Positions 28,502 through 57,022 of a stretch of 64,000 nt of DNA are shown here, piece after piece. Source of the stretch: Chloroflexota bacterium (lineage in GTDB: Bacteria > Chloroflexota > Limnocylindria > P2-11E); contig JBBPIQ010000002.1 in the NCBI GenBank assembly GCA_038040345.1, positions 189,747 through 253,746 of the forward strand, read 5' to 3'. The notes under the pieces were generated by a model. That model did not search any database. It was given only the letters and a program-made list of their open reading frames with translations, and was not told where the DNA came from. Numbering within the stretch: position 1 is the stretch's first letter; each line of letters begins with the position of its first letter. The translations under genes and the position numbers were made by a program.

Positions 28502-28576
28502 CCGACGCTCTAGACTTTTCGTATCCCCACGCTGACTGAAGCCCCTGCCTCGCGCCGCCTCGACAACGGGCTGGTC

Positions 28577-29806
28577 ATGCACGCGCTCGAGGCGCGGCAC
28601 GCGCCGGTCGTCTCGCTGTGGGTCTGGTACCAGGTCGGCGGCCGCAACGAGGTGCCCGGGACGACCGGGATGTCGCACTTCCTCGAGCACATGCTCTTCA
28701 AGGGCACGCCGAAGCATCCGAAGGGCGAGCTCGACAAGCTTCTCGCGCGATACGGCGCGCTGTGGAACGCCTTCACGAGCGAGGACGTGACCTGCTACTT
28801 CGAGACGGTGCCGGCCGAGCGCTACCCGGTCGCGCTCGAGCTCGAGGCAGACCGCATGCGGAACGCGCTCATCACTTTGGAAGAGACCGAGGCCGAGCGC
28901 AACGTCATCGTGAGCGAGCGCGAGGGGCTGGAGAACGACCCGTCGTTCCTACTCGGGGAGCAGCTGCAGGCCGTCGCGTTCGCGCGACATCCCTACGCGC
29001 AGGGCGTCATCGGCAGCAAAGAAGAGATCAAGCTCATGACGCGCGATGGTCTGTACGCGCATTACCGCCGTCACTACGCGCCGAACAACGCGTATTTCAT
29101 CGTCGCGGGCGACGCGCCCGCGGAGGAGCTGCTCGATCGCGCTGCGAACGCGTTCGGCTCGCTCGATGCGGAAGCACCGATCGAACCGCCGAAGGCACCG
29201 GAACCGCCGCAGTACGGCGAGAAGCGCGTCGTCGTTCGCCGCGCGGGCGGCGCGCTCCCGATCATCCAGATCGGCCACAAGGCCCCGCGAGCTTCGGACC
29301 CGCGCGCGGCCGCGCTTTCGGCGCTCGCGGTCGCGCTCGGTGGCGCGACCGCCGGCGGGGGAGAAGCGGCGTCGGGACGGTCGTCGCGTTTCTATCGCGC
29401 GCTCGTCGACACCGGGCTCGCCACTGAGGTAGACGCGTCGTTCTCGCTCATGAAAGATCCGTATCTCTTCATCGCGGAGGCGCATATGCGTCCGGGCGTG
29501 ACGCACGACAAAGTGGAACGGGTGATCCTCGAGGAGCTCGAGAAGGTCTCACGCTCGGCGCTCGACGACGAGGAGTTCGGCCGCGTCCGCAGGCAGATGC
29601 TGTCGGCGAGCGCGTTCATGACCGACACGGTGACCTGGCGTGCTTTCCGTTTCGGACAGCTCCTCGCGACCGGCGCCGCCACGTCGCTCGGCGAGTGGTA
29701 CGACCGTCTCGCCGCGGTCACCGCGGAGGACGTCCGCGCCGCCGCGGAGTCGGTGTTCCAGGAGAAGGGCCGTGTCGTGGGCTGGTTCGTGCCGGAGTCC
29801 TCGTAA
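28577..29806 (+). CDS. M16 peptidase, catalytic subunit
   Basis: HFLEH motif; frame is open from 28502 so the true start may be a non-canonical codon upstream. Confidence 0.8.
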   Translation: MHALEARHAPVVSLWVWYQVGGRNEVPGTTGMSHFLEHMLFKGTPKHPKGELDKLLARYGALWNAFTSEDVTCYFETVPAERYPVALELEADRMRNALITLEETEAERNVIVSEREGLENDPSFLLGEQLQAVAFARHPYAQGVIGSKEEIKLMTRDGLYAHYRRHYAPNNAYFIVAGDAPAEELLDRAANAFGSLDAEAPIEPPKAPEPPQYGEKRVVVRRAGGALPIIQIGHKAPRASDPRAAALSALAVALGGATAGGGEAASGRSSRFYRALVDTGLATEVDASFSLMKDPYLFIAEAHMRPGVTHDKVERVILEELEKVSRSALDDEEFGRVRRQMLSASAFMTDTVTWRAFRFGQLLATGAATSLGEWYDRLAAVTAEDVRAAAESVFQEKGRVVGWFVPESS

Positions 29807-31062
29807 TGGACGTCCGCCGGCACGGTCTCGATAACGGCCTGCGCGTCGCCGTCGTCCCTATCCCCGGGCTTCTCTCCGCCGCGGTGCTCCTCGCCATCGA
29901 GGCGGGGCAATGGTTCGAACCCGCCGGCCGTCCTGGCATCGGACGCCTTACGGCCCAGGCCATGCTGCGCGGCACCACCACGCGCGACGCGAAGACGTGG
30001 GCCGACGCGCTGGACGGCATCGGCGCCGCCGCGCGTCTCGACGTCGGCTCGCATGCCGCGACCTTCAGCGCGCAATCGCTCGGGAGCGATCTCGATGTTC
30101 TGCTCGAGCTGATGGCGGACGCGGTCGTGCGTCCGGCATTCGCCGACAAGGAAGTCGAGCTCGTTCGACAGCAGACCGTCGCGCAGATCGAGGAGGACGC
30201 GAAGAACACACGCGCGGTCGCCGAGAGCGCTTGGCGCGAGCTCGTCTATCCAAAGGGACATCCCTTCCGCGCGCGTCCGATCGGCGATCTCGGCGTGGTG
30301 CGCACCGCGACGGCCGACGATCTTCGAGACCATCACCGCCGCGCTATCCGACCGGATGGCGCGGTCCTCGTCGTCGCCGGCGGGGTCGACGCGAAGCAGG
30401 TCTTCGACGCCGCCGCGACGGCGTTCTCATCGTGGAAGGCCGCCGGGTCTCGCGAGGATCGCAAAGTCCCGGAGGCGCGTCTGACGACGGCCGTGCGAAA
30501 GCTCGACGTCGTGCCCGACAAGACCCAGAGCGACATCGTGCTCGGCTGGCCCGGACTGCCGCGGACCGATCCGCGGTTCGTCGCGGCGCGTGTCACCAAC
30601 ATGGTCTTCGCGGCGGACACGTTCGCAAGCCGCGCGGGCCACGTTGTCCGCGACGAGCTCGGGCTCGCGTACTACGTCTTCAGCACGATCGGCGGTTCGC
30701 GTGGCCAGTCGCCGTGGGTCGTGCGCATGGGCGTGAACCCGATCAACGTCGAGCGCGCGGTGAGCACGACGCTCGACGAGCTGCGCAAGATCGTCGACGG
30801 CAAAGTCGCTGAGGACGATCTCGAGCTCGCGCAGGACAAGCTCGTCGGCGAGCTGGATGTCGCACGCGAGAGTCCGGCCGGCGTCGCGTCGCTGCTTCTC
30901 GAAGGCGAGGTCTTCGAGCTGGGCGATGATTACGCCGAGCGCTATCCACGCGAGCTGCGCGCGGTCACGCTCGAGCAGGTCGTCGAGATGGCGCGCACCT
31001 TCCTCATGCCGGACCGCTACGCCCTCGCGATCGCCGGGCCGCCGCTTCCCGAACGAGATTGA
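29806..31062 (+). CDS. M16 peptidase-like, non-catalytic partner subunit
   Basis: TAATG overlap with upstream gene; M16 fold pattern but no HxxEH. Confidence 0.75.
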   Translation: MDVRRHGLDNGLRVAVVPIPGLLSAAVLLAIEAGQWFEPAGRPGIGRLTAQAMLRGTTTRDAKTWADALDGIGAAARLDVGSHAATFSAQSLGSDLDVLLELMADAVVRPAFADKEVELVRQQTVAQIEEDAKNTRAVAESAWRELVYPKGHPFRARPIGDLGVVRTATADDLRDHHRRAIRPDGAVLVVAGGVDAKQVFDAAATAFSSWKAAGSREDRKVPEARLTTAVRKLDVVPDKTQSDIVLGWPGLPRTDPRFVAARVTNMVFAADTFASRAGHVVRDELGLAYYVFSTIGGSRGQSPWVVRMGVNPINVERAVSTTLDELRKIVDGKVAEDDLELAQDKLVGELDVARESPAGVASLLLEGEVFELGDDYAERYPRELRAVTLEQVVEMARTFLMPDRYALAIAGPPLPERD

Positions 31063-33321: not shown

Positions 33322-33792
33322 ATGAACAATCTTGAGAAGCCTGTCTACGTCTCCGCGGATGGTCTGAAGAAGATCCAATCCGAGCTCGACGATCTGAAGG
33401 CCGCGGGCCGTCAGCGCGTGGCCGAGCGCATTCACGCCGCGATGGAGTTCGGGGACTTCAGCGAGAACTCCGAGCTCGAGCAGGCGAAGAACGATCAAGC
33501 GTTCCTCGAGGGACGGATCATGACGCTCGAGCAGCAGGTGAAGAACGCGCAGATCATCGACCAGAAGACGCACCACGATAAAGTCGAGATCGGCAGCCAC
33601 ATCGTCGTAGAGGCGCAAGGCTCGAAGGAGCAGTACGTCATCGTCGGCTCGGCCGAGGCCGCGCCCGCCGAAGGACGTATCTCGAACGAATCTCCGGTCG
33701 GCAAAGCATTGATGGGACACCGCGCGGGGGAGACGGTCCGGCTGGTCGTTCCGGCCGGCGCGGTGGAGATGAAGATCCTCACCGTCCGTTGA
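33322..33792 (+). CDS. greA: transcription elongation factor GreA
   Basis: MNNLEKPVYVSADGLKKIQSELDDLK...; the ORF-track 32704 start is an upstream extension. Confidence 0.85.
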   Translation: MNNLEKPVYVSADGLKKIQSELDDLKAAGRQRVAERIHAAMEFGDFSENSELEQAKNDQAFLEGRIMTLEQQVKNAQIIDQKTHHDKVEIGSHIVVEAQGSKEQYVIVGSAEAAPAEGRISNESPVGKALMGHRAGETVRLVVPAGAVEMKILTVR

Positions 33793-35378
33793 GCTCCGGG
33801 CACGAGGCGGCCTTCTGGGCCGACGAAGAGGTGGGACGCCTCGCACCCGGCCGGCCGCACGTCGTGCGCGATTCGAAAACTCCCTCGGGGCCCGTGCCGA
33901 TATCTGGCCTGCGCGGTCCGATCATCAGTGACGCGCTCTTTCGCACCTTCAAGTCGCACGCTCTCGACGTGCGCTTCGTCTACACGATCGACGACTACGA
34001 CCCCATGGACTCGCAGTCGATGAAGGAACGCGCCGGCATGGCGGAGCACATGGGCAAGCCGCTCTGCATGATCCCGAGCCCCGATCCTTCCGTCGGAACG
34101 GACTTCGCCGACTATCACGCGACCCGCTTCGTCGCGCTCTTCGCGGGCCTCGGGATCACGCCCGAATTCCACCGGATGCGCGATCTCTATCGGACGGGCG
34201 AGCTCGATCGGCAGATCGATCTCGTGCTGCGCAATGCCGAGACGATCCGTCAGGTCCACAAGCGCATCGCGAACGTCGACCACCCCGAGGGCTGGCTCCC
34301 CGTCGCGGTGATCTGCGAGAACTGTGGACGAATCGGCACGACGCTTGCGACCGACTACGACGGAAAGACCGTCGCTTACGAATGCAAGCGCGACTACGTG
34401 GAGTGGGCCCAAGGATGCGGGCACAAAGGGCGCATCTCTCCGTTCAAGGGAAACGCGAAGCTTCTGTGGAACGAGCAGTGGTGCGCGCAATGGGATCACT
34501 TCAACGTCACGTATGAGGAAGGCGGCAAGGATCTGCTGACCGCGGGCGGATCTCGCGAGCGCTCGAACGAGATCTACCGGGAGGTCTTCAAGAAGGAGCC
34601 TCCGCCTGGCTTGCAGCATGAGTTTTTTCTTCTCGGCGGCAAGAAGATGGCGAGCTCGAAAGGCATCGGCGCCGAGGCGCACGAGATCGTGGCGATCTAT
34701 CCGCCAGAGATCGTTCGCTTTCTGATGCTGCGGACGCCTCCAAAGCGCCACCTCGAGTTCGATCCGGCCGGCATGACCCTGCCCCGTCTGATGGATGAGT
34801 ACGACCGCGCCGCGGACGCGTACCGCGAGGACCCCGAGAGCGATCTCGCAAAGACCTGGCGTCTCTCGCAGGTCTCGCCGACGCCGGCCGCGCCCGGCTT
34901 CCGCGTGCGCTTCACGACTATCGCGGCTTGGCTGCAGATCCCGAGCATCAAGCCCGACGCCGAGGCCGAGAAAGAGAAGGGTGCGCTCCTGACCGACGCG
35001 GAGCTCCGGGAGCTGCACCGGCGTCTCGAGCTCGCCCGCGCCTGGCTCGAGCGATGGGCTCCCGACGAGGCGAAGTTCCAGGTGCAGGAGACGACCCCGC
35101 CGGTGGAACTCACGCCGGAGCAGCGCCGCTACCTGATTGAGATCAAGTCACTGATCGGCACGGTCCACGATGCGGCTGAGATGCAGAACCGGCTCTACGA
35201 GGTCGCGAAGAAGGTCGGCCTCGTGAAGGCGGACGGCAAGCCCTCTCAGGACGCGTTCGCGGCGATCTACCTCGCCTTTCTCGGCAAGCCGAACGGACCG
35301 CGAGCGGGGTGGCTGCTCCTCTCGATAGACCCCGACCGCGTGCGCCGCCGCCTCGACGACCTGGGTCGTGCCGCGTGA
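33789..35378 (+). CDS. lysK: class I lysyl-tRNA synthetase-like protein
   Basis: TTG start overlapping greA stop; TPSG...IDDYD and KMASSKG motifs; the expected HxGN signature reads PISG. Confidence 0.75.
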   Translation: MSSGHEAAFWADEEVGRLAPGRPHVVRDSKTPSGPVPISGLRGPIISDALFRTFKSHALDVRFVYTIDDYDPMDSQSMKERAGMAEHMGKPLCMIPSPDPSVGTDFADYHATRFVALFAGLGITPEFHRMRDLYRTGELDRQIDLVLRNAETIRQVHKRIANVDHPEGWLPVAVICENCGRIGTTLATDYDGKTVAYECKRDYVEWAQGCGHKGRISPFKGNAKLLWNEQWCAQWDHFNVTYEEGGKDLLTAGGSRERSNEIYREVFKKEPPPGLQHEFFLLGGKKMASSKGIGAEAHEIVAIYPPEIVRFLMLRTPPKRHLEFDPAGMTLPRLMDEYDRAADAYREDPESDLAKTWRLSQVSPTPAAPGFRVRFTTIAAWLQIPSIKPDAEAEKEKGALLTDAELRELHRRLELARAWLERWAPDEAKFQVQETTPPVELTPEQRRYLIEIKSLIGTVHDAAEMQNRLYEVAKKVGLVKADGKPSQDAFAAIYLAFLGKPNGPRAGWLLLSIDPDRVRRRLDDLGRAA

Positions 35379-37054
35379 ACGGCAAGCTTCCCGTCGCGAT
35401 CCTCTGGCACATGCACCAGCCCTACTACAAGCACCCGCAGACGAGCGAGTTCGTCCTGCCGTGGGTGCGCCTGCACGCGTCGAAGGACTACCTGCACATG
35501 GCGCGGCTGCTTCAGGAGTTCCCACGCGTGAAGGTGAACTTCACGATGGTGCCGAGCCTCCGCGATCAGCTCGAGGATTACGCGCGCGGCGCCGACGACG
35601 AGGACACGCGACTCACGATGCGCACGGTCGATGGCGTGCTCGCGGATGAGGAGCGCGCGCACATCCTGCGGCGGTTCTTCTCCATCCACCACGGCAACGT
35701 CATCCACCGCTATCAGGAGTACCGTCGGCTTCTGCAGCTGGCGATGGTGACCGGCGACCGACACGAGCTGCTCTCGGACGATTACTTCGTCGATCTCGCG
35801 CTCTGGTTCAACCTCGCGTGGATCGATCCTGACGACATCCGCGCCGATCAGCGTCTCGTCGAGCTCGCCGATAAAGGCGCGCGGTTCACGCGCGAGGACG
35901 TGCGCTACGTCATCGGGCGCCAGCGCTTCATGGCGTCAGGCGTACCGCACCTCTATCACCGGCTCGAGCGCGACGGCCAGGTCGAGATCCTTACCACGCC
36001 CTACTACCACCCGATCCTCCCGCTGATCATCGACGACCGATCGGCGTTGCGGTCCGATCCGTCCGCGCAGCTTTCCGAGACGCCGTTCAGGTATCCGGAT
36101 GACGCCGCGTTCCAGCTCGAGGAGGCGGTCGCGTCACACGAGCGCGCGTTCGGGCAGAAGCCCCGCGGCGTGTGGCCGTCGGAAGGCGCCGTCTCGCCGG
36201 AAGCCGCCGACGCGATCCGCAAGGCCGGGCTCTCGTGGTTCGCGTCGGATGAAGGTGTGCTCGCGCGATCGGTCGACGTCGAGCTGCGGCGCGACGAGGT
36301 CGGTGCGCTCCTCGAGCCCGCGCTTTTGTACCGCCCGTATCGGCTCGCGAACGGCGCGACGGTCATCTTCCGCGATCGCGAGCTCAGCGACCACATCGGC
36401 TTCGTGTACGGCGACATGAAGCCCGAGGACGCGGTCCGCGACATGATCGCGAAGCTCGAGCGCGCGCGTGACCGCCTGCCGAACGAGGGCGGGCCCTATA
36501 TCGCGTCGATCATCCTCGACGGCGAGAACGCCTGGGAGCAGTACCCCAACAACGGCAACGACTTCCTCCGCGCGCTGTACGGCAAGCTCGAGGCGGACGA
36601 TCGTTTCGAAACAGTGCGCATCTCCGACTTCTTGGAGAAATCGCCGGCAACGGTCGAGCTTCCGCGGCTCCACACCGGGTCGTGGATCGAGGCAAACCTT
36701 CGCGTGTGGACCGGCGAGCCCGCGCACGCTCGCGCGTGGAGCGCGCTCGAGCGCACGCGCCGCTTCGCGCAGGAGCAGTGGGGCTCGCTCCGCTTCATGC
36801 CCAAGAGCGTCCGGCAGCCGCTGATGGTCGCCGAAGGCAGCGACTGGTTCTGGTGGTACTCGAGCCGCAACTCGTCGCCGGAGGACGGGGTCTTCGACGC
36901 GCTATTCCGCGCGAACCTCGAGGTCGTGTGGTGGTTCGCGGGTGCGGAGCCGCCGGACGACCTCCGAAGCCCGCTCATGGATCCCCAACGCTTTGCCGCA
37001 CCGACTAACCGCATCGGTGCGATGCTTCCAGGCTCAGGTGAGCGATACGGCTAG
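35375..37054 (+). CDS. glycoside hydrolase family 57 protein (alpha-glucan branching/amylase-like)
   Basis: GTG start overlapping lysK stop; PVAILWHMHQPYYK...ASDEGV...ILDGENAWE. Confidence 0.8.
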   Translation: MNGKLPVAILWHMHQPYYKHPQTSEFVLPWVRLHASKDYLHMARLLQEFPRVKVNFTMVPSLRDQLEDYARGADDEDTRLTMRTVDGVLADEERAHILRRFFSIHHGNVIHRYQEYRRLLQLAMVTGDRHELLSDDYFVDLALWFNLAWIDPDDIRADQRLVELADKGARFTREDVRYVIGRQRFMASGVPHLYHRLERDGQVEILTTPYYHPILPLIIDDRSALRSDPSAQLSETPFRYPDDAAFQLEEAVASHERAFGQKPRGVWPSEGAVSPEAADAIRKAGLSWFASDEGVLARSVDVELRRDEVGALLEPALLYRPYRLANGATVIFRDRELSDHIGFVYGDMKPEDAVRDMIAKLERARDRLPNEGGPYIASIILDGENAWEQYPNNGNDFLRALYGKLEADDRFETVRISDFLEKSPATVELPRLHTGSWIEANLRVWTGEPAHARAWSALERTRRFAQEQWGSLRFMPKSVRQPLMVAEGSDWFWWYSSRNSSPEDGVFDALFRANLEVVWWFAGAEPPDDLRSPLMDPQRFAAPTNRIGAMLPGSGERYG

Positions 37055-39063: not shown

Positions 39064-40326
39064 ATGACGCCTCTCCAGCGCATCCGCGAGGACCCCGAGG
39101 AAGTGCGCGACATGCTCGTCGCACGCGGCTTCGACGCGCCCCTAGACCGGATCCTCGAGCTCGACCGAAAGGCGCGCGATCTCCGGGCCCAGGTGGAGTC
39201 GCTCAACGCCGAGCGGAACAAGGCGAGCCGCGGCGGGCCGCCCAGCGACGAGGTCAAAGCCCGGATGCGCAAGGTGGGGGAGGAGATCAAGTCGCTCCAG
39301 GCCGAGCTCACCGCCCTCGAGGCCGAGCGCGACGAGAAGCTCCTGTGGATACCGAACGAGATCGACCAGCGCGTCCCGCGCGGCAAGGACGAGCACGACA
39401 ACAAGGTCGTCCGCCAGGACAAGCCGAAATCGCTCGAGCTCGCTCCGCGGCCGCACTGGGAGTTCGGCGAGTCGCTCGGGATCCTCGACATCCCGCGGGG
39501 GACGAAGCTTTCGGGCTCGCGCTTCTACGTGCTGCGCGGCGCCGGCGCGGCTCTGCAGCGCGCGCTCATCGCGTGGATGATCGATCTCAAGATCGCCGCC
39601 GGCTTCACCGAGATCTACCCCCCGTTCGTCACACGGCGCGAGACGCTCATCGGGAGCGCGCACCTTCCGCACTTCGACGAAAACCTCTACCGCGACGAGG
39701 ACGACGACGTGTGGCTCGTTCCCACCGCGGAGCCGCAGCTCGTGGGGCTGCATCGCGACGAGACGCTGGACGCGGCGACCTTGCCGCGGCGCTACGTCGC
39801 GTACACCGCGTGCTTCCGCCGCGAGCACATGAGTGCGGGCCGCGATGTCCGCGGGATCAAGCGCGGGCACCAATTCGACAAGGTCGAGATGGTGGTGCAC
39901 TGCGCGCCCGACGAATCGCCTGAATGGCTCGACAAGATGACCGCGCTCGCTGTCGAGGTGCTCGAGAAGCTCGAGCTGCCGGTGCGCGTGACGGAACGGT
40001 GCACCGGCGATCTCGGATTCACGGCGCTGCGCGGTTTCGACGTGGACGCGTGGGGCCCGGCCGCGAACGAATGGCTCGAGGTCTCATCGGCGTCGAACTG
40101 CGGCTCGTTCCAGTCCGAGCGCTCGAACATCCGCTTCCGCCGCGAGGCCGGCGGGAAGCTCGAGCACGTTCACATCCTCAACGCGTCGGGCCTCGCCCTG
40201 CCTCGACTGATGATCGCGATCATGGAGAACTACCAGCGCCCGGACGGTTCGCTCGAGATCCCGAAACCGGTTCGTTCCTATATGGGGGGCCGCGAGAAGA
40301 TCGCGCCGGGAGAGTTCTCCCTCTAA
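39064..40326 (+). CDS. serS: seryl-tRNA synthetase
   Basis: N-terminal coiled coil; class II motifs (FRRE, GLALPR). Confidence 0.9.
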   Translation: MTPLQRIREDPEEVRDMLVARGFDAPLDRILELDRKARDLRAQVESLNAERNKASRGGPPSDEVKARMRKVGEEIKSLQAELTALEAERDEKLLWIPNEIDQRVPRGKDEHDNKVVRQDKPKSLELAPRPHWEFGESLGILDIPRGTKLSGSRFYVLRGAGAALQRALIAWMIDLKIAAGFTEIYPPFVTRRETLIGSAHLPHFDENLYRDEDDDVWLVPTAEPQLVGLHRDETLDAATLPRRYVAYTACFRREHMSAGRDVRGIKRGHQFDKVEMVVHCAPDESPEWLDKMTALAVEVLEKLELPVRVTERCTGDLGFTALRGFDVDAWGPAANEWLEVSSASNCGSFQSERSNIRFRREAGGKLEHVHILNASGLALPRLMIAIMENYQRPDGSLEIPKPVRSYMGGREKIAPGEFSL

Positions 40327-43300
40327 GCGCTCTCTGCCTTGCCTTCGAGGTCGAGCTCGGCGATGCGGCGTCGCGTGCGCTCGGCCAGATAGGTCGGGCC
40401 GTTCTCTTCGAAGACAGCGAGGGCCTCGATACATTCGTTGCGCGCCCCGGCCACGTCGCCGTGCGCCGCGAGCAAGCGCGCCGAGGCTGCGCGGATCTCC
40501 GCGCTCGCCACGGGGAGCCCCAGGCGGAACGCGTGCTCCAGACCTTCGGTCCGGCGCGCGTCGGCCATCGCGAGGTCGTCGCTCGCGCACGCGACCTCGA
40601 TGAGGGTCGCCGCGATCCCGGCGCCGCAGCGGCGGCACTCGTGTTCGATCGCGGCGGCATGGGCGGCCGCGGCGTGCTGCCCGGCATCTTCAAGCGAGCC
40701 CTGATACAGAGCCAGGCGGGCCAGCTCCGCGGCGATCCGCGGCGCGAGGTGGGCCCTCGCCGGCGAGCGCTCGGCGACGGCGCGCGCCTCCGACAGGGTC
40801 GTCGCGGCGGAGATGAAGTCGCCGCGCTCGATGGCAAGCGAGCCCAGCACGAGCAAGGTGGACGCGGGATCGGCCGGCTGTGGGCCCTGCGCGAGCGGAT
40901 CCGCGAGGCCCAGCGCGCGCCCCAGGGTGGCCTCAGCCTCGGCGAAGCGACCGAGCCCGAAGAACGCCCGACCGAGAGCGCGGAGCGCCCCCGCTTCGCC
41001 GGAGACGTTGCCCAGTCGCGATTCGGCCCCGAGGAGCTGGTGCGCCAGATCTTCGGCCTTCGCGAGCTCCCCGCGATCGAGCGCCGCGTAGGTAAGGAGC
41101 GCGAGAGCTCGGGCCAGTCCGGAGAGGTCACCGATCGCCGTGGCGTGCTCGACGCATCGCTCGGTCGCGCGGAGCGCTTCGTCCGCGGCGCCCGAGTCGG
41201 CAGCGAAGATCGCGACGGCTTCCTCCGCGGCGAGCGCGAGACCGCGATCGTTCGCGGCGAGCGCCTCTTTCACGGCGGTACGCCCGACGGCGAGAGCCTC
41301 GGCCGGTCGCTCGTCTGAACGCGCGAGGTACGCCTTGGCGAGCGTGAGCTCCGCCCGTTCGCGTCCCTCTGCAGGGGTCAGGCGATCCGCCTCGGCGAGA
41401 TGCTCGGCCGATCGCTGCGTCTCATGCGCGCGCGCCGCGAGCTCGCCGGCGCGGCGCCGAAGTGCCGCGCGCACGACATCGTCGGAAAGCGGGCCGCTGA
41501 GCGCATCCTCGGCGATCGCGAGAGCGTCCTCGTGCCCGAGCGCGCGAGCCGCATCGCACGCCTCCACGAGTGCGCGGGCGCGCTCGGATTGGCCACCGCC
41601 GGGGAGCCGCTCGGCGAGACGCGCCGCCGCGCGATAGTGATGAAGGCCATCCGCGAGCGCGTACAACGCGACGGCGCGGTCGCCCGATCGCATCGTGTAG
41701 TCGATCGCGCGGGTGACGTGCGTGGACTCGGCGAAATGATTGGCGAGAAGCTCGGGCTGCTGGACCGCGACCTCGGGCATCACGCTCTCGATCACCTGGC
41801 CGATGCGGCCGTGCAAGTCCTCGCGGTTCCGCGGTGAGATCGAGTCGTACACGAGCTCGCGCAACAGCGATTGCCGGAACCGGTAGTCGCCGTGGCTCGC
41901 GAGCTCCAACAGGCCGCGAGCGCAGAGACTCGCGAGGGCCGAATCGACATCGAGGTCCTGGCCGAACAGCGCCCGCAGCAGGCCGGGCTCGCAGGCGCGC
42001 GCAGCGACCGCGGTCGCGTGAAGCACGCGCCTTTCCGGACCGACCGCGAGCTCCGCCCGCCGCAGCAGGAGCATCGGAAGCGCATCGGGTAGCTCGCGCA
42101 TCCGGCTGACGTCGGCGAGCGGCGATGCGTCCTCGCGCACGACCACGACGCCGGTCGCGACGAGCCACCGCGCCGTCTCCTCTATATAGGTGGGGCTGCC
42201 GGCGCTTCGGGAGACGACGTCGTCCACGGCCTCCTGCGGGAGCGCGCTCGCCGGGAGAAGGGCCTGAAGGAGAGCGGCGCTCGAACCGCGGTCGAGCGGT
42301 GTGAGCCGGATCTGCACGTGGCCGCGGCTCGTCGACCAGGGTGGATTCAGCTCCGGGCGATACGTCGTCACGAACAGCGCCGCGGTGCTTGCGAGCGCAG
42401 GCGCAAGCGCGGCCAGGAGCTCCTGCGACGCCGCGTCGGCCCACTGCACGTCGGACAGCGCGAGGATGACCGGCTGCGTGCGAGCGACGCGAAGGATGAG
42501 ATCGCGGATCGCGCGGTCAAGGAGCTTGCGGCGCGTCTCGCCAGAGAGCGGCGGCAGCGTGAGGCTGTAACCGAGAGCGGCGAGCACGAGCTTCGCGGCC
42601 TCGGGCTCCATGCTGGGGACCGTTTCGGTGAGCATGCGGTGCGCGATCTCTGTCGGCGCGTTCGTGCCGATCGCGAGCGCTCGCCTGAGGAGGTCGGAGA
42701 TCGCGCCGTATGCGCGGTGCGCGTCGTATGGCGAGCATCGTGCCCGAGCGACGCGCGCGCCAAGCGCACGCGGATCGGCGAGCAGCTCGTCAACCAGCCG
42801 CGTCTTCCCGAGCCCGGCCTCGCCCACGATCGAGACGATGTGGCCCTTTCCGGCGAGCGCCTCATCGAGTGCGCCCAAGAGCAGCCCCATCTCCTGATCG
42901 CGACCGATCAGCGGAGCGCGGCCGCGGTCGGTCGCGGCGGTCTCGACACGAAGGAGCCGCCACGCGACGAGGGGCGCGCTCTTGCCTTTGGCGGCGACGG
43001 GCGGGTGCGGCTCGTAGGCGAAGAGACCCGGAGCAAGACGGTATGTGGCATCGCCGACGAGGACCTCGCCCGGCTCCGCCGCCTGCTCGAGCCGCGCGGC
43101 GACGTTTACGGCGTCGCCGAGCACGCCGAACTCGCTCTCCTTGTCGCCGACCGCCCCCGCGACCGCGAGGCCGGTGTTTATCCCGATTCGCAGCGCGAGG
43201 TTGCGACCGGTGCGCTCGGCGATGCGCTCGTTCTCGCGATCCAGCGCGCCGAGGATCGCGAGGGCGGACCGTTGCGCGCGTGCCGGATGATCGACCTCGT

Positions 43301-43607
43301 TGTCTACCGCGCCGAACACCGCGACGACGGCGTCCCCGATGTACTTCTCGATGAGGCCGCCGGACGCCCTGATCTCCACGGCGATCGCGTCCCACGCGGC
43401 GCGCATGTTCTCGTGGAGCTCTTCCGGATCGAGGCGCTCCGCAAGCGCGGTGAACCCGGAGATGTCCGCGAAGAGGACCGTGACCTGCTTCGTCTCGCCC
43501 TCGACGGGCGCGCGCGCGAGAAGCCGCGCGCCGCATTTTCCACAGAAGCTGTACGCAACAGGCATCTCCGTCGCGCACTTCGGACAGGTGATCGTCGCTC
43601 CCCGCAT
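40323..43607 (-). CDS. zinc-ribbon / class III adenylate-guanylate cyclase / STAND-type ATPase / TPR protein
   Basis: CPKC...CGKC ribbon; VTVLFADISGFT...YIGDAVVAVFG cyclase motifs; Walker A GEAGLGKT; long alpha-helical repeat C-terminus. Confidence 0.75.
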   Translation of the reverse strand: MRGATITCPKCATEMPVAYSFCGKCGARLLARAPVEGETKQVTVLFADISGFTALAERLDPEELHENMRAAWDAIAVEIRASGGLIEKYIGDAVVAVFGAVDNEVDHPARAQRSALAILGALDRENERIAERTGRNLALRIGINTGLAVAGAVGDKESEFGVLGDAVNVAARLEQAAEPGEVLVGDATYRLAPGLFAYEPHPPVAAKGKSAPLVAWRLLRVETAATDRGRAPLIGRDQEMGLLLGALDEALAGKGHIVSIVGEAGLGKTRLVDELLADPRALGARVARARCSPYDAHRAYGAISDLLRRALAIGTNAPTEIAHRMLTETVPSMEPEAAKLVLAALGYSLTLPPLSGETRRKLLDRAIRDLILRVARTQPVILALSDVQWADAASQELLAALAPALASTAALFVTTYRPELNPPWSTSRGHVQIRLTPLDRGSSAALLQALLPASALPQEAVDDVVSRSAGSPTYIEETARWLVATGVVVVREDASPLADVSRMRELPDALPMLLLRRAELAVGPERRVLHATAVAARACEPGLLRALFGQDLDVDSALASLCARGLLELASHGDYRFRQSLLRELVYDSISPRNREDLHGRIGQVIESVMPEVAVQQPELLANHFAESTHVTRAIDYTMRSGDRAVALYALADGLHHYRAAARLAERLPGGGQSERARALVEACDAARALGHEDALAIAEDALSGPLSDDVVRAALRRRAGELAARAHETQRSAEHLAEADRLTPAEGRERAELTLAKAYLARSDERPAEALAVGRTAVKEALAANDRGLALAAEEAVAIFAADSGAADEALRATERCVEHATAIGDLSGLARALALLTYAALDRGELAKAEDLAHQLLGAESRLGNVSGEAGALRALGRAFFGLGRFAEAEATLGRALGLADPLAQGPQPADPASTLLVLGSLAIERGDFISAATTLSEARAVAERSPARAHLAPRIAAELARLALYQGSLEDAGQHAAAAHAAAIEHECRRCGAGIAATLIEVACASDDLAMADARRTEGLEHAFRLGLPVASAEIRAASARLLAAHGDVAGARNECIEALAVFEENGPTYLAERTRRRIAELDLEGKAESA

Positions 43608-43696
43608 CGGCCAACCGAGGTTACGTCGGGGGACCTGTCATCCGGGTGTCGGCGAGGTGTGTTAGCAAGTCACCCGTTCAGGTGACTTTCGGCCTA

Positions 43697-45607: not shown

Positions 45608-46061
45608 ATGGCCGAGATTCGTATCGTGCGCGCCGGGCGCAACGAGCTCGATGACCTCGCTCCGCTCTTCGATGGCTACCGTCAGTTCTACGGACAGCGG
45701 TCGGACCTCGCCGCCACGCGCGCGTTCCTCGGCGATCGGATCGAGCGCGACGAGTCCGTGACCTATGTGGCGTACACGGGTTCACGAGAGCCGGTCGGGC
45801 TTCACCCAGCTCTACCCATCGTTCTCGTCCGTCTCACTCAAGCGCCTCTGGATCTTGAACGACCTCTTCGTTCGCTCCGACATTCGACGTGGCGGGGTCG
45901 GGCGAGCGTTGCTCGAGCGAGCGAGGCGCCACGCGGTCGACACGGGCGCCAAGGGCCTCGTTCTCAACACTGGGGTAACGAACACGCCCGCGCAGACCTT
46001 GTACGAATCTTGCGGCTGGAAGAAGGACGACGAATTCTTCCAGTACCACCTGTTCCTCTGA
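45608..46061 (+). pseudogene. GNAT acetyltransferase with +1 frameshift
   Basis: N-terminal part in ORF 45608..46069 and C-terminal GNAT core (GVGRALLERARRHAV...GW) in ORF 45765..46061 join if one G is removed from the GGG run at about 45797-45799. Confidence 0.55.
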
Positions 46062-46091
46062 GCCGATAGCTCTTCCTCGGCCCACGGGCGC

Positions 46092-46128
46092 ACTTGACAG
46101 CTGGCCTGTAAGCCTGTAGTAAACCAAG
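46092..46128 (+). promoter_or_regulatory. sigma-70-like promoter upstream of arsR-like gene
   Basis: TTGACA, 17-nt spacer, TAGTAA in an AT-rich island. Confidence 0.35.
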
Positions 46129-46159
46129 TAGTTATTTAACCGGAAGGTACAATAGATAG

Positions 46160-46510
46160 ATGGCGACCGACCACCTCAGCGCGACGTTCGCGGCCATCGC
46201 CGACCCGACGAGGCGGGCGATCCTCGCGCGCCTGGCGTCGGGAGAGGCCTCGGTCACGGAGCTCGCGAAGCCGTTCGACATGACGCTTCCCGCGGTCTCG
46301 AAGCATCTCAAGGTGCTCGAAAACGCGGAGCTGATCTCGCGCGGACGGGACGCCCAGTGGCGCCCGGCGCGGCTCGAGGCGGCGCGTCTGCATGAGGCCG
46401 CGAAATGGATGGAGCGCTACCGGATCTTCTGGGAGCAGAGCCTCGATCGCCTCGACCAGCATCTGCGTGAACTACAAGGGGAGGACAAGAAGCATGGCCG
46501 CAAGAAATAG
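46160..46510 (+). CDS. ArsR/SmtB family transcriptional regulator
   Basis: FAAIADPTRRAILARLASGEASVTELAKPFDMTLPAVSKHLKVLENAELI wHTH. Confidence 0.8.
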   Translation: MATDHLSATFAAIADPTRRAILARLASGEASVTELAKPFDMTLPAVSKHLKVLENAELISRGRDAQWRPARLEAARLHEAAKWMERYRIFWEQSLDRLDQHLRELQGEDKKHGRKK

Positions 46511-46994
46511 CGTGAGCGCGCCGGAGCGGACCGTCGTCACGACCCGGGTCTTCGATGCGCCGCGCGAGATGGTCTACAAAGCCTGGACCGATCCGAAGCA
46601 GCTCGCGCAGTGGTTCCCGCCAAAGGACTTCACCTCGCCGCGGTGCGAGGTCGACGCGCGGCCGGGTGGCATCTTCCGCGTCGACATGAAGGGACCGGAC
46701 GGGCCGCCGTTCAACGGCGAGGTACTTCCCGGCAAGGGCATCTTCCGCGAGGTCGTGCCGAACGAACGCCTGGTATTCACGTTCGGCGGCGAGGAAGGCG
46801 CGCCGCCCCCGCCGATCCTCGTCACCGTTCTCTTCGAGGCGCAGGGCAACAAGACCAAGCTGACTATCCACCAGACCGCCGAGACGGTCGCCGAGTACGA
46901 GTCGCTCATCAAGCTTGGCGTGACCGAGGGCCTGCGACAGAGCTTCGATAAGCTGGACGAGCTCCTCGCTCGCCGTAAAGGACAAGCGCGGTGA
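46494..46994 (+). CDS. SRPBCC (AHSA1-like) family protein
   Basis: RVFDAPREMVYKAWTDPKQLAQWF...; start at internal ATG of ORF 46392..46994. Confidence 0.7.
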   Translation: MAARNSVSAPERTVVTTRVFDAPREMVYKAWTDPKQLAQWFPPKDFTSPRCEVDARPGGIFRVDMKGPDGPPFNGEVLPGKGIFREVVPNERLVFTFGGEEGAPPPPILVTVLFEAQGNKTKLTIHQTAETVAEYESLIKLGVTEGLRQSFDKLDELLARRKGQAR

Positions 46995-47128
46995 GCACGA
47001 CGAATCGAATCCTCACTTTGACCCGCGTGTTCGACGCGCCGCGGGAACTTGTATGGAAGGCCTACACCGACCCAAAGCACATCGTGAAGTGGGCGTTCTC
47101 CAGGCGTAGTCGCGTAGAGTCCGCGTAG
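46991..47128 (+). pseudogene. truncated second SRPBCC gene (N-terminal about 36 codons only)
   Basis: VSTTNRILTLTRVFDAPRELVWKAYTDPKHIVKWA, then an unrelated tail and stop. Confidence 0.4.
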
Positions 47129-47147
47129 CACGTGGGGGAGCAGACGA

Positions 47148-47540
47148 ATGGCCGCACCGAAGACCGCCGCCAAGAAGCCCGCGGCAAAGAAGACCGGCGC
47201 GGGCGTGGACGATCGCTATTTCGCTGAGCAGCCCGCCGACAAGGCGGCGTTGCTCGAGAAGCTGCGCGCCCTCGTGAACAAGGGAGTGCCCGACGCGGAC
47301 GTCTCGATCAAGTGGGGCGTGCCGTTCTACCAAATGAATGGAAAGAACATCTGCGCGCTCGCCTCATTCAAGGACCACGTCGGCATCAACTTCTTCGCGC
47401 CGCCGAGCGCGTTCGTCGATCCAGGCAAGAAGCTCGAGGGCAGCGGCAAGGGCAATCGAATGCTCAAGGTCCGCACCGCCGCCGATGTCGACAGCGCCAG
47501 CATTCTTCGTTGGCTCAAGGCGGTCGTCGCTGCGAACTAG
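47148..47540 (+). CDS. DUF1801 (YdhG-like) domain protein
   Basis: Lys-rich N-terminus; WGVPFYQMNGKNICALASFKDHVGINFF. Confidence 0.6.
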   Translation: MAAPKTAAKKPAAKKTGAGVDDRYFAEQPADKAALLEKLRALVNKGVPDADVSIKWGVPFYQMNGKNICALASFKDHVGINFFAPPSAFVDPGKKLEGSGKGNRMLKVRTAADVDSASILRWLKAVVAAN

Positions 47541-47585
47541 GACTAGGCTTCACGTAGCGACCAAACCAACTCAGGGGGAGACAAC

Positions 47586-47996
47586 ATGAACCTCAATGGC
47601 CTACTCATCGGAACAGAGAACCCGGACCGACTCAGGGACTACTACACCAAGCTCTTCGGCAAGCCCAACTGGGACGAGGGCGGCTACTTCGGATGGCAGA
47701 TCGGTAGTGGCTCGATGACCGTCGGGCCGCACGACCAGGTCAAGGGAAAGAACACCACGCCAGGTCGGCTGATCTGGAACATCACCGCGGCCGACGTCAA
47801 GGCAGAGTTCGAAAAACTGAAGGCCGCGGGCGCCACCGTCGTGAAGGAGCCCTACCAGATGGATGAGGCTCCTGGGCAGCAGATGTGGATCTCGACGTTC
47901 GCCGACCCGGACAACAACTATTTCCAGCTCATGACCCCGATGGAGATGCCGACGGAGGCTGACCGACCGGTGGCCGATATCGGAGCGCGTTCCTAA
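47586..47996 (+). CDS. VOC (glyoxalase/bleomycin-resistance fold) family protein
   Basis: 136 aa, typical small VOC architecture. Confidence 0.55.
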   Translation: MNLNGLLIGTENPDRLRDYYTKLFGKPNWDEGGYFGWQIGSGSMTVGPHDQVKGKNTTPGRLIWNITAADVKAEFEKLKAAGATVVKEPYQMDEAPGQQMWISTFADPDNNYFQLMTPMEMPTEADRPVADIGARS

Positions 47997-48011
47997 GGCC
48001 GGGCTCTTCGC

Positions 48012-48392
48012 CTAGCGGGTCTTTTCGATCTCGGCGACGCGGGCTCTTACGATCTTCGTCACGAGCCCGTACGGAAGCGGCTTGTTTGCGGGAAACTGAA
48101 GTGTGCCTTTGCTCTGCACGTAGGCCGTGAGTTCGTCGGCGTGCGCGTCGATGAACTTGCGGCTGGTGCCGTACAGGGCGGTGTGAGCCTTCCAATAGGC
48201 GAAGTACGCAACTCGTTTCCCGTCTTGCTTGAACCCCGCCATCCCGTAGCTGACGATCTCGGTCGCCTTCGGCGCGGCTGCCTTGATCGTCTGGCGCAGC
48301 TTCGTCAGTGCGGCGCGCCTGTCCTTCGGTGCGGACGCGATGTAGTCATCGACGGTCTTCGAGGGTTTCGTGGTGACCTTCCGTATCGGCAT
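48012..48392 (-). CDS. DUF1801 domain protein
   Basis: VAYFAYWKAHTALYG; real start at internal ATG of ORF 48012..48677. Confidence 0.55.
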   Translation of the reverse strand: MPIRKVTTKPSKTVDDYIASAPKDRRAALTKLRQTIKAAAPKATEIVSYGMAGFKQDGKRVAYFAYWKAHTALYGTSRKFIDAHADELTAYVQSKGTLQFPANKPLPYGLVTKIVRARVAEIEKTR

Positions 48393-48394
48393 TT

Positions 48395-48736
48395 CTAGAC
48401 CGCCGGCCCCGAGTGCTCGATCCAATACACCATTGCGAACACAACGGCGGCCGCGAAAACCTGCAGCGCGAGCACTGGGAGCGCCGCTCGTGGCGCGCGC
48501 GGGAGCCAGGTCAGCGCGAAATACCCCATCACCGCCAGTTGCACCGGCATGAGGAGCTGGAAGAGGTGCGCCTCGGTGCCCTCGTCGGCCTGGCGGACCA
48601 GCCCATTCGTGGCGACGAATCGCACACCTAGGACCAGCAGCAAAACGGGAATCGCGATCGGCAGCCAACCGCTCCAATGCGTTAGCGGTGAGGTTCGTGG
48701 ACTCGTGGTGGTCGCCATTGGCGAAATGCTACCCAC
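48395..48736 (-). CDS. small membrane protein
   Basis: 113 aa with three hydrophobic helices. Confidence 0.3.
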   Translation of the reverse strand: MGSISPMATTTSPRTSPLTHWSGWLPIAIPVLLLVLGVRFVATNGLVRQADEGTEAHLFQLLMPVQLAVMGYFALTWLPRAPRAALPVLALQVFAAAVVFAMVYWIEHSGPAV

Positions 48737-48748
48737 GACGCGACGACT

Positions 48749-49120
48749 TCATGATCCTCTGAAGCGATCGAGCTCGCGGCGCTCGCGCTTTGTCGGACGG
48801 CCGCTGCCCGGCTCTCGTACGGCTACGCGTGGCTGTCGCTTGACCACCGGCGCAGGCGGGCTGTGGTCGACCATGCACTTCGCCGCCGCCGGCGCCCCAA
48901 CGCGCTTTTCGATGATGACCACGACCTCGAGAATGCGGGGACGCCCGACGAACGCGTCGATGCGGTCGCCGACCTTCACCTGCGTCGACGCCTTGGCCGC
49001 ACCGCTGTTCACGCGCACATGGCCGCCACGGCAGGCGGCCGTCGCTTCCGACCGAGACTTATAGATCCGGACGGCCCACAGCCAGATGTCTACCCGGGTT
49101 TTTTCTGTGCCTGTGACCAT
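48749..49120 (-). CDS. S4-domain RNA-binding protein (Hsp15/HslR-like)
   Basis: RVDIWLWAVRIYKSRSEATAACRGGHVRVNSGAAKASTQVKVGDRI; basic C-terminal tail. Confidence 0.55.
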   Translation of the reverse strand: MVTGTEKTRVDIWLWAVRIYKSRSEATAACRGGHVRVNSGAAKASTQVKVGDRIDAFVGRPRILEVVVIIEKRVGAPAAAKCMVDHSPPAPVVKRQPRVAVREPGSGRPTKRERRELDRFRGS

Positions 49121-49486
49121 CAAGGCTCCGAGAGCGAACGTTAACGACTGGCACAAGCCTCGGTGCATCGCGACCGTCCCGGGCGCGGGCGACCGATTTG
49201 TCTCCGATTTCGACACCGAAGACACCTAGGCTCGTTTAGCGGCACCTCTCAGCGCATCGGACCCAAAGATAGGCCCGGTTTGTTTCCTGGGTTACGAAAT
49301 CGTCATCGGGGTGTGGCTCCGATTCGCGCATGATTCGGTTCGTGGCGCGACGTTGGTCGGTGCCACCTGCACGGCGATCTGATCGCTGACGCCAGGGGGG
49401 GCGGCGCGATCGTCTACACGGCGCAAAGAGCGTCGGAGCGCGCGGATACGACAAGACGAAGAAGATTTGAAAGAAGGCACCTCTCA

Positions 49487-50452: not shown

Positions 50453-50473
50453 GGCCGCACTGGCCAAGAACGA

Positions 50474-50514
50474 GGCGGAGGGACCCCTTCGGGGCCCTTC
50501 CGCCTTTTTTCTTT
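50474..50514 (+). terminator. rho-independent terminator between convergent genes
   Basis: GGCGGAGGGACCCC-TTCG-GGGCCCTTCCGCC hairpin followed by TTTTTTCTTT. Confidence 0.6.
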
Positions 50515-50524
50515 AGCTCGACTT

Positions 50525-51595: not shown

Positions 51596-51720
51596 TTCGC
51601 CGCCGCACTGTTCACGCGAACCCGGCCACGGCAGGCGGCCGTCGCCTCCGAACGGGTCTTATAGATCCGGACGGCCCACAGCCAGATGTCTACCCGGGCC
51701 CTCTCGATATGGGCGTGAAA
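51517..51720 (-). pseudogene. degenerate duplicate of the S4-domain gene at 48749-49120
   Basis: about 190 bp near-identical to 48749-49110 with two in-frame internal deletions (about 54 and 117 bp) that remove the S4 core. Confidence 0.5.
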
Positions 51721-51752
51721 GGCGACGGAGCGGATTTTGTGCTCCCGTGCAT

Positions 51753-56737: not shown

Positions 56738-56744
56738 CAGTGTG

Positions 56745-57020: not shown

Positions 57021-57022
57021 GG

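What the first reader, a model, noticed from the sequence alone, without database searches (positions are those of the whole stretch)
33789..35378. Class I lysyl-tRNA synthetase-like protein with the HIGH-type signature replaced
The protein aligns to class I LysRS (TPSG...DDYD and KMASSKG), but where the ATP-binding HxGN signature is expected it reads PISG. It is translationally coupled between greA and the GH57 gene, so it may be a non-canonical or repurposed paralogue rather than the housekeeping enzyme.
Basis: partly seen in the sequence, partly recalled or inferred. Interest (0 to 1): 0.5.

Follow-up and report, generated by a model that had tools for sequence, protein, structure and literature searches.

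The report
Lysyl-tRNA synthetase with remodelled HIGH motif
This is most likely the ordinary lysine-charging enzyme of a soil Chloroflexota lineage, but in the whole lineage the "HIGH" ATP-site signature of its enzyme class reads Pro-Ile-Ser-Gly, which makes it a natural test of how essential that signature is.

Summary
ORF 33789-35378 encodes a full-length class I LysRS in which the HIGH signature (H-V-G-N in the solved P. horikoshii enzyme, H-V-G-S in the nearest relatives) reads P-I-S-G, with no gap in the alignment. The KMSKS-type loop, the zinc cysteines and the anticodon-binding domain are intact. It is not an error: the identical protein occurs in three sequencing runs, and about 90% of 211 relatives carry P and S at these positions.

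The "repurposed paralogue" reading is not supported. The gene sits directly after greA. In 64 of 73 other bacterial greA loci that slot holds class II lysS, the housekeeping enzyme. A sister Chloroflexota lineage has a canonical HVGS class I gene in the same slot. The gene evolves at about the same rate as the neighbouring serS and greA (dN/dS 0.10-0.18). Some orthologues have regained HIGS, TIGS or PIGH.

The most likely reading is that this is the lineage's working LysRS with a remodelled ATP-site motif: H to P, and G-S swapped to S-G. The closest precedent is the G/AxHH motif of IleRS2.

I could not test whether these genomes also carry a class II lysS, and I could not test activity.

The parts
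33322..33792 (+). greA (156 aa), the upstream partner; its stop overlaps the lysK start (TTGA)
   Evidence: Pfam GreA_GreB_N and GreA_GreB; sequence. greA followed by a LysRS gene is a conserved pair in 64 of 73 other loci.
33789..35378 (+). lysK: class I lysyl-tRNA synthetase orthologue, 529 aa, TTG start
   Evidence: PF01921 3e-76; TIGR00467 287 bits; 1IRX 8e-54 over the full length; AF2 model pLDDT 88.2; Foldseek top hit 1IRX, TM 0.82/0.86.
33879..33890 (+). TPSG (aa 31-34), the conserved loop after strand beta1
   Evidence: S33 and G34 are invariant in both the clade and canonical LysRS1.
33897..33908 (+). P-I-S-G (aa 37-40; codons CCG ATA TCT GGC) at the position of the HIGH signature
   Evidence: Ungapped alignment to HVGN of 1IRX. 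The sister clade has HVGS = CAC GTC GGC AGC. The model places P37 at the N-cap of helix 38-56, directly after strand 24-30. P is in 93% and S in 90% of 211 clade members.
34101..34118 (+). DFADYH (aa 105-110): clade-specific D105 and H110 replace the canonical S/N and F/Y; candidate compensating positions
   Evidence: Clade-versus-canonical column comparison. A functional role is inference only.
34314..34424 (+). Four conserved cysteines (C176, C179, C199, C210) of the zinc-binding insertion
   Evidence: All four are conserved in canonical LysRS1 and present in 112 of 112 clade members.
34524..34535 (+). GKDL (aa 246-249); the canonical form is GKDH (His240 of P. horikoshii)
   Evidence: L is present in 112 of 112 members. 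GKDL is already present in sister proteins that keep HVGS (P0172, L001), so it predates the HIGH change.
34617..34625 (+). HEF (aa 277-279); the canonical form is YEF (Tyr268 of P. horikoshii)
   Evidence: The L009-type subclade keeps YEF together with PISG, so this change is not coupled to the HIGH change.
34644..34664 (+). KMASSKG (aa 286-292), the KMSKS-type loop, in short canonical LysRS1 form
   Evidence: The low-pLDDT segment 284-294 fits a mobile loop.
34776..35375 (+). C-terminal helical anticodon-binding domain (about aa 330-529)
   Evidence: Aligned to 1IRX up to residue 519; all-helical in the model. The canonical conserved residues Q383, W419, L441, F490, Y494, G503 and P504 are kept.
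35375..37054 (+). GH57 glycoside hydrolase gene; its GTG start overlaps the lysK stop (GTGA)
   Evidence: Pfam PF03065 2.5e-60; sequence. The same arrangement occurs in L002, L009, L086, L087 and L088.
39064..40326 (+). serS (class II seryl-tRNA synthetase); part of the conserved neighbourhood shared with the sister lineage. The start coordinate is inferred from the 420-aa orthologue.
   Evidence: Pfam Seryl_tRNA_N and tRNA-synt_2b. Also present in L001 and L002.

Best explanation
This is the vertically inherited lysK of a Chloroflexota lineage. The lineage is labelled Candidatus Limnocylindria and includes a related subclade labelled Chloroflexi or Dormiibacterota. The gene most likely still works as the cell's lysyl-tRNA synthetase.

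An ancestor of these bacteria replaced class II lysS with a class I gene in the conserved greA-lysS operon. That ancestral class I enzyme had a normal H-V-G-S signature. Later, on the stem of the present clade, His became Pro (CAC to CCN). The adjacent Gly-Ser pair became Ser-Gly (GGC AGC to AGC GGC), which moved the small residue one position down the first turn of helix alpha-A.

Inferred mechanism: ATP is still held by the class I backbone contacts and by the intact KMSSS loop. The Ser hydroxyl and the helix N-terminus (Pro at the N-cap), or other clade-specific residues such as D105 and H110, take over the transition-state role of the lost His.

Shown here: homology, positional orthology, the housekeeping slot, purifying selection, and conservation of the new residues. 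Inferred only: catalytic activity, how the lost His is compensated, and the absence of a second LysRS.
For: Family and fold:
- The protein is a full-length member of the class I LysRS family with the expected fold.
- 50 of 54 columns that are at least 85% conserved in canonical LysRS1 are kept. These include TPSG, DDxD, four Cys, W227/W231/W235, E243, GKD, GGS, E278, KMS.S and the C-terminal domain residues.

Locus:
- A GreA-anchored scan shows class II lysS immediately downstream of greA in 64 of 73 loci. These come from Bacillota, Spirochaetia and Chloroflexota (Anaerolineae, Dehalococcoidia).
- Eight loci have class I lysK in that slot and no class II gene in the flanks: L001-L004 and L006-L009.
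- The sister protein P0137 (locus L001) is HVGS and lies in the same greA-lysK-serS context.

Selection and rate:
- dN/dS of lysK is 0.10-0.18, against 0.04-0.21 for greA, 0.10-0.12 for GH57 and 0.19-0.22 for serS.
- Its divergence tracks its neighbours. Against L001: lysK 48%, serS 50%, greA 57%. Against L002: 80%, 84%, 86%.
- P37 and S39 are conserved in 93% and 90% of 211 members. Codon 37 varies synonymously, and Ser39 uses both codon families: TCN in the window's subclade and AGC in L009.

Reversions:
- Parsimony places P and S at the clade root. Gly39 was regained at least 5 times and His/Thr37 once, giving HIGS, TIGS, PIGH and PFGH.
- These forms lie in the same greA-lysK-GH57 locus.
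- The site therefore still tolerates the residues used by active class I enzymes, and some lineages have returned to them.

Other support:
- Precedent: natural G/AxHH IleRS2 enzymes are fully active and also show natural reversion (PMC10485003).
- Adenosine-phosphate binding in class I is largely through the backbone (PMC5919687).
- No class II LysRS signature occurs in the 64-kb window.
Against: - No activity data exist.
- The first His of HIGH normally contributes about 1000-fold to amino acid activation, and the Gly makes room for adenine (PMC10485003). Losing both is a serious change.
- I could not examine whole genomes, so a class II lysS elsewhere in them is not excluded. A class II profile search gave no Limnocylindria-labelled hit, but only the best 120 of more than 8000 hits were visible.
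- Two lysine-pocket residues differ from the canonical ones (H240 to L, Y268 to H). Both variants do occur in relatives that keep H-x-G.
- About a third of the clade, though not this protein, also has a 5-residue insertion in the KMSKS loop. This shows the ATP site is unusually plastic in this lineage.
Confidence: 0.7

Rival explanations
1. Repurposed or catalytically dead paralogue (pseudo-synthetase). The cell's Lys-tRNA is made by a class II LysRS encoded elsewhere. This protein binds tRNALys or lysine for another purpose, such as regulation, tRNA-dependent transfer or a chaperone role.
For: The two most conserved residues of the class-defining HIGH motif are replaced. The motif and the KMSKS loop are unusually variable inside the clade. 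[quoted passage not shown] Whole genomes could not be checked.
Against: The gene is the positional orthologue of a canonical lysK, and it sits in the slot that holds housekeeping lysS in other phyla. No domain has been lost. 50 of 54 canonical columns are kept, including the anticodon-binding domain. Its evolutionary rate is like that of serS and greA, with no burst. The new residues are themselves conserved rather than drifting. Canonical residues have reappeared in some orthologues. No Limnocylindria-labelled class II LysRS was seen, which is weak evidence.
Confidence: 0.12
2. The protein is a working but catalytically weakened LysRS, tolerated without compensation because these slow-growing oligotrophic soil bacteria need little aminoacylation capacity. 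On this view the motif is simply under relaxed constraint.
For: Many states are seen at the motif (PISG, PISA, PISS, LISN, AVSG, PIGH, TIGS, HIGS). The KMSKS loop is also variable. Canonical residues have returned in some lineages, as if they were mildly beneficial.
Against: P37 and S39 are more conserved (93% and 90%) than the average column (70% mean identity). Ser is maintained across both codon families. That pattern indicates selection for these particular residues, not drift. Position 40 is restricted to small residues (G, A or S), or to H or S when position 39 is Gly.
Confidence: 0.15
3. Sequencing or assembly artefact, or a decaying pseudogene.
For: None beyond the unusual motif.
Against: The identical 529-aa protein occurs in three independent runs. 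The reading frame is intact. More than 200 homologues share the state. dN/dS is 0.10-0.18.
Confidence: 0.01

Closest known systems
Canonical class I lysyl-tRNA synthetase (LysRS1; P. horikoshii 1IRX; Pfam PF01921 / TIGR00467)
   Same: Full-length homology and fold: Rossmann core, Zn-binding insertion and C-terminal helical anticodon-binding domain. TPSG, DDxD, GKD, the KMSSS loop, four Cys and 50 of 54 conserved columns are kept.
   Different: HIGH reads P-I-S-G instead of H-[VI]-G-[NSA]. GKDH is GKDL and YEF is HEF. Among 85 representative clusters of other LysRS1 proteins, 77 carry H..G, 2 carry T..G and 1 carries N..G.
Sister Chloroflexota LysRS1 (P0137 / L001 type, 'KTPSGTVHVGSLRGP', GKDL)
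   Same: Same greA-lysK-serS neighbourhood. It shares the LRGP, WN..W.AQW and GKDL signatures and is 48% identical.
   Different: It keeps His and Gly (HVGS) and has no GH57 gene downstream.
IleRS2 with the non-canonical G/AxHH signature (Brkic et al. 2023, PMC10485003)
   Same: A natural, clade-wide rearrangement of the HIGH motif in a housekeeping class I aaRS. Neighbouring motif positions are exchanged, and some lineages have reverted to the canonical form.
   Different: In IleRS2 the His moves from position 1 to position 3 and the 4th His is kept. Here no His remains in the motif: position 1 is Pro, and the exchange is between positions 3 and 4 (G-S to S-G). The IleRS2 change is tied to mupirocin hyper-resistance. 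No inhibitor link is known here.
TrpRS 'TIGN' signature (B. stearothermophilus; recalled from my own knowledge, not checked here)
   Same: An active class I aaRS without His at motif position 1. The TIGS variants inside this clade resemble it.
   Different: TrpRS keeps the Gly at position 3 and Asn at position 4.
Second-copy class I LysRS of Bacillus cereus (lysK alongside class II lysS; PMC2916919)
   Different: The B. cereus gene is an extra copy under T-box control. The window has no T-box or other Rfam element, and the gene sits in the housekeeping greA slot.

Membership tests
Class I lysyl-tRNA synthetase (LysRS1) | Sequence-profile membership above curated thresholds | tested here: met
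   PF01921 257 bits (cut-off 27). TIGR00467 equivalog 286.7 bits (cut-off 147.55).
Class I lysyl-tRNA synthetase (LysRS1) | Full architecture: Rossmann catalytic core, Zn-binding insertion and C-terminal helical anticodon-binding domain | tested here: met
   Residues 5-522 align to residues 3-519 of 1IRX. AF2 pLDDT 88.2. Foldseek TM 0.82/0.86 to 1IRX. Four Cys are conserved.
Class I lysyl-tRNA synthetase (LysRS1) | HIGH signature (H-x-G-[N/S/A/H]) at the N-terminus of helix alpha-A | tested here: not met
   P-I-S-G at aa 37-40. By descent the protein belongs to the family, but it fails the class-defining signature. I therefore file it as a variant, and its function as LysRS is inferred.
Class I lysyl-tRNA synthetase (LysRS1) | KMSKS-type mobile loop (KMSSS in LysRS1) | tested here: met
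   KMASSKG at aa 286-292.
Class I lysyl-tRNA synthetase (LysRS1) | Lysine-pocket residues. The P. horikoshii W218, H240 and Y268 equivalents and their roles are recalled from Terada 2002 and Wang 2006, which could not be retrieved here. | tested here: inconclusive
   The W218 equivalent is kept, H240 is L and Y268 is H. Both substitutions also occur in relatives with an intact H-x-G.
Class I lysyl-tRNA synthetase (LysRS1) | Lysine activation and tRNALys aminoacylation | not testable with these tools
   This needs ATP-PPi exchange and charging assays, or complementation.
Housekeeping (sole) LysRS of the genome | No other LysRS gene in the same genome | not testable with these tools
   Only 20-kb loci can be read. 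There is no class II signature in the 64-kb window or in the flanks of L001-L009. No Limnocylindria-labelled class II hit appeared among the 120 shown (weak evidence).
Housekeeping (sole) LysRS of the genome | Occupies the conserved housekeeping locus and evolves like other core translation genes | tested here: met
   greA-lysS pairing in 64 of 73 other loci, against greA-lysK here. dN/dS and divergence are like serS and greA.
aaRS-derived paralogue / pseudo-synthetase (GluQRS/YadB, EpmA/PoxA, HisZ type) | Extra copy beside the canonical enzyme, usually truncated (anticodon-binding domain lost) and at a separate locus | tested here: not met
   The protein is full length with the C-terminal domain conserved. 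It is the positional orthologue of a canonical lysK. Coexistence with a canonical enzyme could not be tested.
Non-canonical-HIGH IleRS2-type (G/AxHH) | His relocated to motif position 3, with the 4th His retained | tested here: not met
   No His in P-I-S-G. This is analogous remodelling, not the same motif.

The most novel reading that the evidence does not exclude
This could be the only LysRS of these bacteria and a fully competent one. [quoted passage not shown] Transition-state stabilisation would be re-wired to other groups. As with the G/AxHH motif of IleRS2, the change might have been selected by a natural inhibitor aimed at the ATP or adenylate site. Close orthologues of about 80% identity that carry HIGS, TIGS or PIGH would provide a ready-made natural mutant series.
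Probability: 0.35. Interest if true: 0.7.

Novelty: new variant of a known kind. Interest (0 to 1): 0.5.

Why it matters
HIGH is one of the two signatures that define class I aminoacyl-tRNA synthetases. Its first His is credited with about a 1000-fold effect on amino acid activation, and its Gly with making room for adenine. A clade-wide, selected replacement of both in what appears to be the housekeeping LysRS of an abundant soil lineage would be only the second documented natural re-design of this motif, after IleRS2 in 2023. It would be the first with no His in the motif. It also comes with natural revertants for direct comparison. On the practical side, motif-based checks would wrongly flag these enzymes as inactive.

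Tried and rejected
1. Hidden HIGH or a frameshift upstream. Rejected: the ORF starts right after a stop, the alignment to 1IRX is ungapped, and homologues have the same N-terminal length.
2. Assembly error. Rejected.
3. His277 (Y to H) as the relocated catalytic His. Rejected as a general explanation: the L009-type subclade combines PISG with YEF or LEF.
4. GKDH to GKDL as part of the same event. Rejected: GKDL is already present in the HVGS sister proteins.
5. Accelerated evolution on the clade stem. Rejected: lysK divergence tracks serS, greA and H+-PPase.
6. Direct search for class II lysS in Limnocylindria. A profile of four Chloroflexota class II LysRS returned only Dehalococcoidia, SAR202, Anaerolineae and Acidobacteriota labels among the 120 hits shown. 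This is uninformative beyond weak negative evidence. Whole genomes cannot be read with these tools.
7. Literature searches for a HIGH-less LysRS1, or for LysRS in Limnocylindria, found nothing.
8. T-box or other RNA control upstream. None was found in the window.
9. Atomic inspection of the active site. Not possible, because model coordinates are not exposed. Only secondary structure and pLDDT were usable.
Full report
**What is there.** The ORF at 33789-35378 (+) encodes 529 aa. It starts with a TTG that overlaps the greA stop codon (TTGA). It ends with a TGA that overlaps the GTG start of a GH57 gene (GTGA). GreA and GH57 are confirmed by Pfam. The protein matches Pfam PF01921 (3e-76) and the TIGR00467 lysine-tRNA ligase equivalog (287 bits, cut-off 148). 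It aligns end to end with the solved P. horikoshii class I LysRS 1IRX (8e-54). In that alignment ITPSGYVHVGNFRE pairs without a gap with KTPSGPVPISGLRG, so HVGN is replaced by PISG (aa 37-40, nt 33897-33908).

**It is real and clade-wide.**
- The identical protein is present in three independent sequencing runs.
- The best 120 homologues are 65-91% identical, and many are labelled Candidatus Limnocylindria (Chloroflexota). Almost all carry P-[IV]-S-[GAS].
- A second subclade is about 53% identical. It is labelled Chloroflexi, or Dormiibacterota in one GTDB representative (L009). It has the same P-I-S-[GSA] motif.
- Over 211 full-length members, P37 is present in 196 and S39 in 190.
- Outside the clade, 77 of 85 representative clusters of class I LysRS have H..G, two have T..G and one has N..G.

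**What else changed.**
- Of 54 columns that are at least 85% conserved in canonical class I LysRS, 50 are kept. They include the four zinc cysteines, the W-rich segment, GKD, GGS, the KMS.S loop and the C-terminal anticodon-binding domain residues.
- The four changes are H37P, G39S, H249L (GKDH to GKDL; P. horikoshii His240) and Y277H (YEF to HEF; Tyr268).
- From memory of Terada 2002 and Wang 2006, His240 and Tyr268 line the lysine pocket. I could not retrieve those papers.
- GKDL already occurs in the sister proteins that keep HVGS, and HEF occurs in some canonical proteins. The second PISG subclade keeps YEF. These two changes are therefore not coupled to the loss of HIGH.
- Other clade-specific invariant positions are D105 and H110 (SYAxHF to DFAxYH), C232, D236, W381 and W423. 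They are candidates for compensation, which is inference only.
- An AlphaFold model is confident (pLDDT 88.2). It places P37 at the N-cap of helix 38-56, right after strand 24-30, which is the position of the canonical His. Its best structural match is 1IRX, with TM 0.82/0.86.

**Orthologue or paralogue.** This is the key result.
- A sister Chloroflexota protein (P0137, HVGS, 48% identical) lies in the same context: H+-PPase, greA, lysK, then a class II seryl-type synthetase gene. The window shows the same order: H+-PPase at 8.6 kb, greA, lysK and serS.
- I anchored a scan of GTDB species genomes on the window's GreA and classified the gene downstream.
- In 64 of 73 loci from other bacteria, the gene immediately after greA on the same strand is class II lysS (RNEG..HNPEF). 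These loci come from Paenibacillus, Alicyclobacillus, Peptococcia, Desulfitobacteriia, Veillonella, a spirochaete, and the Chloroflexota classes Anaerolineae and Dehalococcoidia. Several of the remaining nine loci stop shortly after greA.
- In L001-L004 and L006-L009 the same slot holds class I lysK, and no class II gene is in the flanks.
- This is in-situ non-orthologous displacement inside a conserved greA-LysRS operon. It happened before the HIGH motif changed.
- Translational coupling to greA is therefore what one expects of the housekeeping enzyme.

**Selection.**
- dN/dS of lysK against three relatives is 0.10-0.18. The neighbours give 0.04-0.21 for greA, 0.10-0.12 for GH57 and 0.19-0.22 for serS.
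- Protein divergence tracks the neighbours at every depth. Against L001: lysK 48%, serS 50%, greA 57%, H+-PPase 64%. Against L006: lysK 67%, serS 73%, greA 77%. Against L002: lysK 80%, serS 84%, greA 86%.
- There was no burst of change, so the long stem in the tree reflects organismal distance.

**How the motif evolved.**
- The sister protein reads H-V-G-S with codons CAC GTC GGC AGC. L009 reads P-I-S-G with CCG ATC AGC GGC.
- That is one transversion (His to Pro) and two transitions that exchange the neighbouring Gly and Ser. The glycine is shifted by one position rather than lost.
- Position 40 is G, A or S throughout the clade.
- In the window's subclade Ser39 is encoded by TCN, the other serine codon family, and codon 37 varies synonymously. 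Both point to long-term selection for these residues.
- Fitch parsimony on an NJ tree of 225 sequences puts P and S at the clade root. Gly39 was regained at least five times (PIGS, PIGH, PFGH, HIGS/TIGS). His or Thr at position 37 was regained once, always together with Gly39.
- The HIGS, TIGS and PIGH genes lie in the same greA-lysK-GH57 locus, so they are orthologues.
- The residues that reappear (H, T, G, and His at position 4) are the ones used by active class I enzymes. This argues that the site is still a working ATP site.

**Comparison with what is known.**
- The closest precedent is IleRS2. A natural G/AxHH motif (positions 1 and 3 exchanged) is fully active, gives mupirocin hyper-resistance, and has reverted naturally in one clade. 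That paper also states that the first His contributes about 1000-fold to activation and that the Gly accommodates adenine (PMC10485003).
- In the window protein no His remains in the motif, so the change is more radical.
- Class I enzymes hold the adenosine phosphate largely through backbone hydrogen bonds (PMC5919687). This makes retained ATP binding plausible.
- Searches of the paper library found no description of a class I LysRS without HIGH, or of LysRS in Limnocylindria.

**What could not be settled.**
- I could not read whole genomes, so a class II lysS elsewhere in them is not excluded.
- The window has none.
- A profile search with four Chloroflexota class II LysRS returned no Limnocylindria-labelled protein, but only 120 of more than 8000 hits are shown. 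That is weak evidence.
- Activity is untested.

**Verdict.**
- Best explanation (0.7): it is the lineage's orthologous, housekeeping-slot LysRS with a selected, remodelled HIGH motif.
- Rival explanations: a pseudo-synthetase beside an unseen class II enzyme (0.12); a weakened enzyme tolerated without compensation (0.15); an artefact (0.01).
- Novelty: a new variant of a known kind. Interest: 0.5.

Noticed in passing
Relatives P0284-P0308 and about one third of the window-type clade; not the window protein (window aa 286-292 has the short form): The KMSKS-type loop carries a 5-residue insertion and loses the trailing Lys, for example KMSTS-RPEEW-KALGA or KMSTS-HAEAW-RHLGA instead of KMSTSKGLGA. 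Both class I signature regions are therefore plastic in this lineage.
   Followed up: partly
L086 versus L087 (orthologues P0011 and P0021), the codons for aa 36-37: The HIGS and TIGS forms differ by GTC CAT (V-H) versus TCC ACG (S-T). This looks like a compensated -1/+1 frameshift across two codons rather than point substitutions.
   Followed up: no
L010-L082 (greA loci of other phyla): greA followed directly by class II lysS is a strongly conserved gene pair across Bacillota, Spirochaetia, Anaerolineae and Dehalococcoidia (64 of 73 loci).
   Followed up: yes
window 35375-37054 (+): The GH57 glycoside hydrolase is translationally coupled to the end of lysK (GTGA overlap). This pairing is conserved in both PISG subclades (L002, L009, L086-L088) but absent from the HVGS sister locus L001. 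A sugar-metabolism gene has been inserted into a translation operon.
   Followed up: partly
L009 (DASQXO010000032.1): The record is titled Candidatus Dormiibacterota. Its greA-lysK-GH57 locus is syntenic with the Limnocylindria loci, with GreA 72% and GH57 65% identical to the window. Either the PISG clade spans both lineages, or the bin is mislabelled.
   Followed up: no
window 39064-40326 (+), 56651-56738 (+), 63620-63713 (+): serS lies 3.7 kb downstream of lysK. Two tRNA-Ser genes (anticodons TGA and GCT) are in the same window.
   Followed up: no
window about 46000-60000: G+C drops to 0.63-0.65 from 0.67-0.72 elsewhere. The stretch holds small accessory genes (AHSA1-like, DUF1801, glyoxalase, NmrA, response regulator) and ends near a tRNA-Ser gene. 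It may be a variable region or island.
   Followed up: partly
window 40323-43637 (-): A roughly 1100-aa ORF. Its syntenic counterpart in L002 carries guanylate cyclase, AAA_16 and TPR domains, so it is a large signalling ATPase next to serS.
   Followed up: no
window 28514-29806 and 29803-31062 (+); also 1018-2319 (+): There is a tandem pair of M16 (insulinase-type) peptidase genes and a third copy at the start of the window. The pair is conserved upstream of greA in L002 and partly in L001.
   Followed up: no
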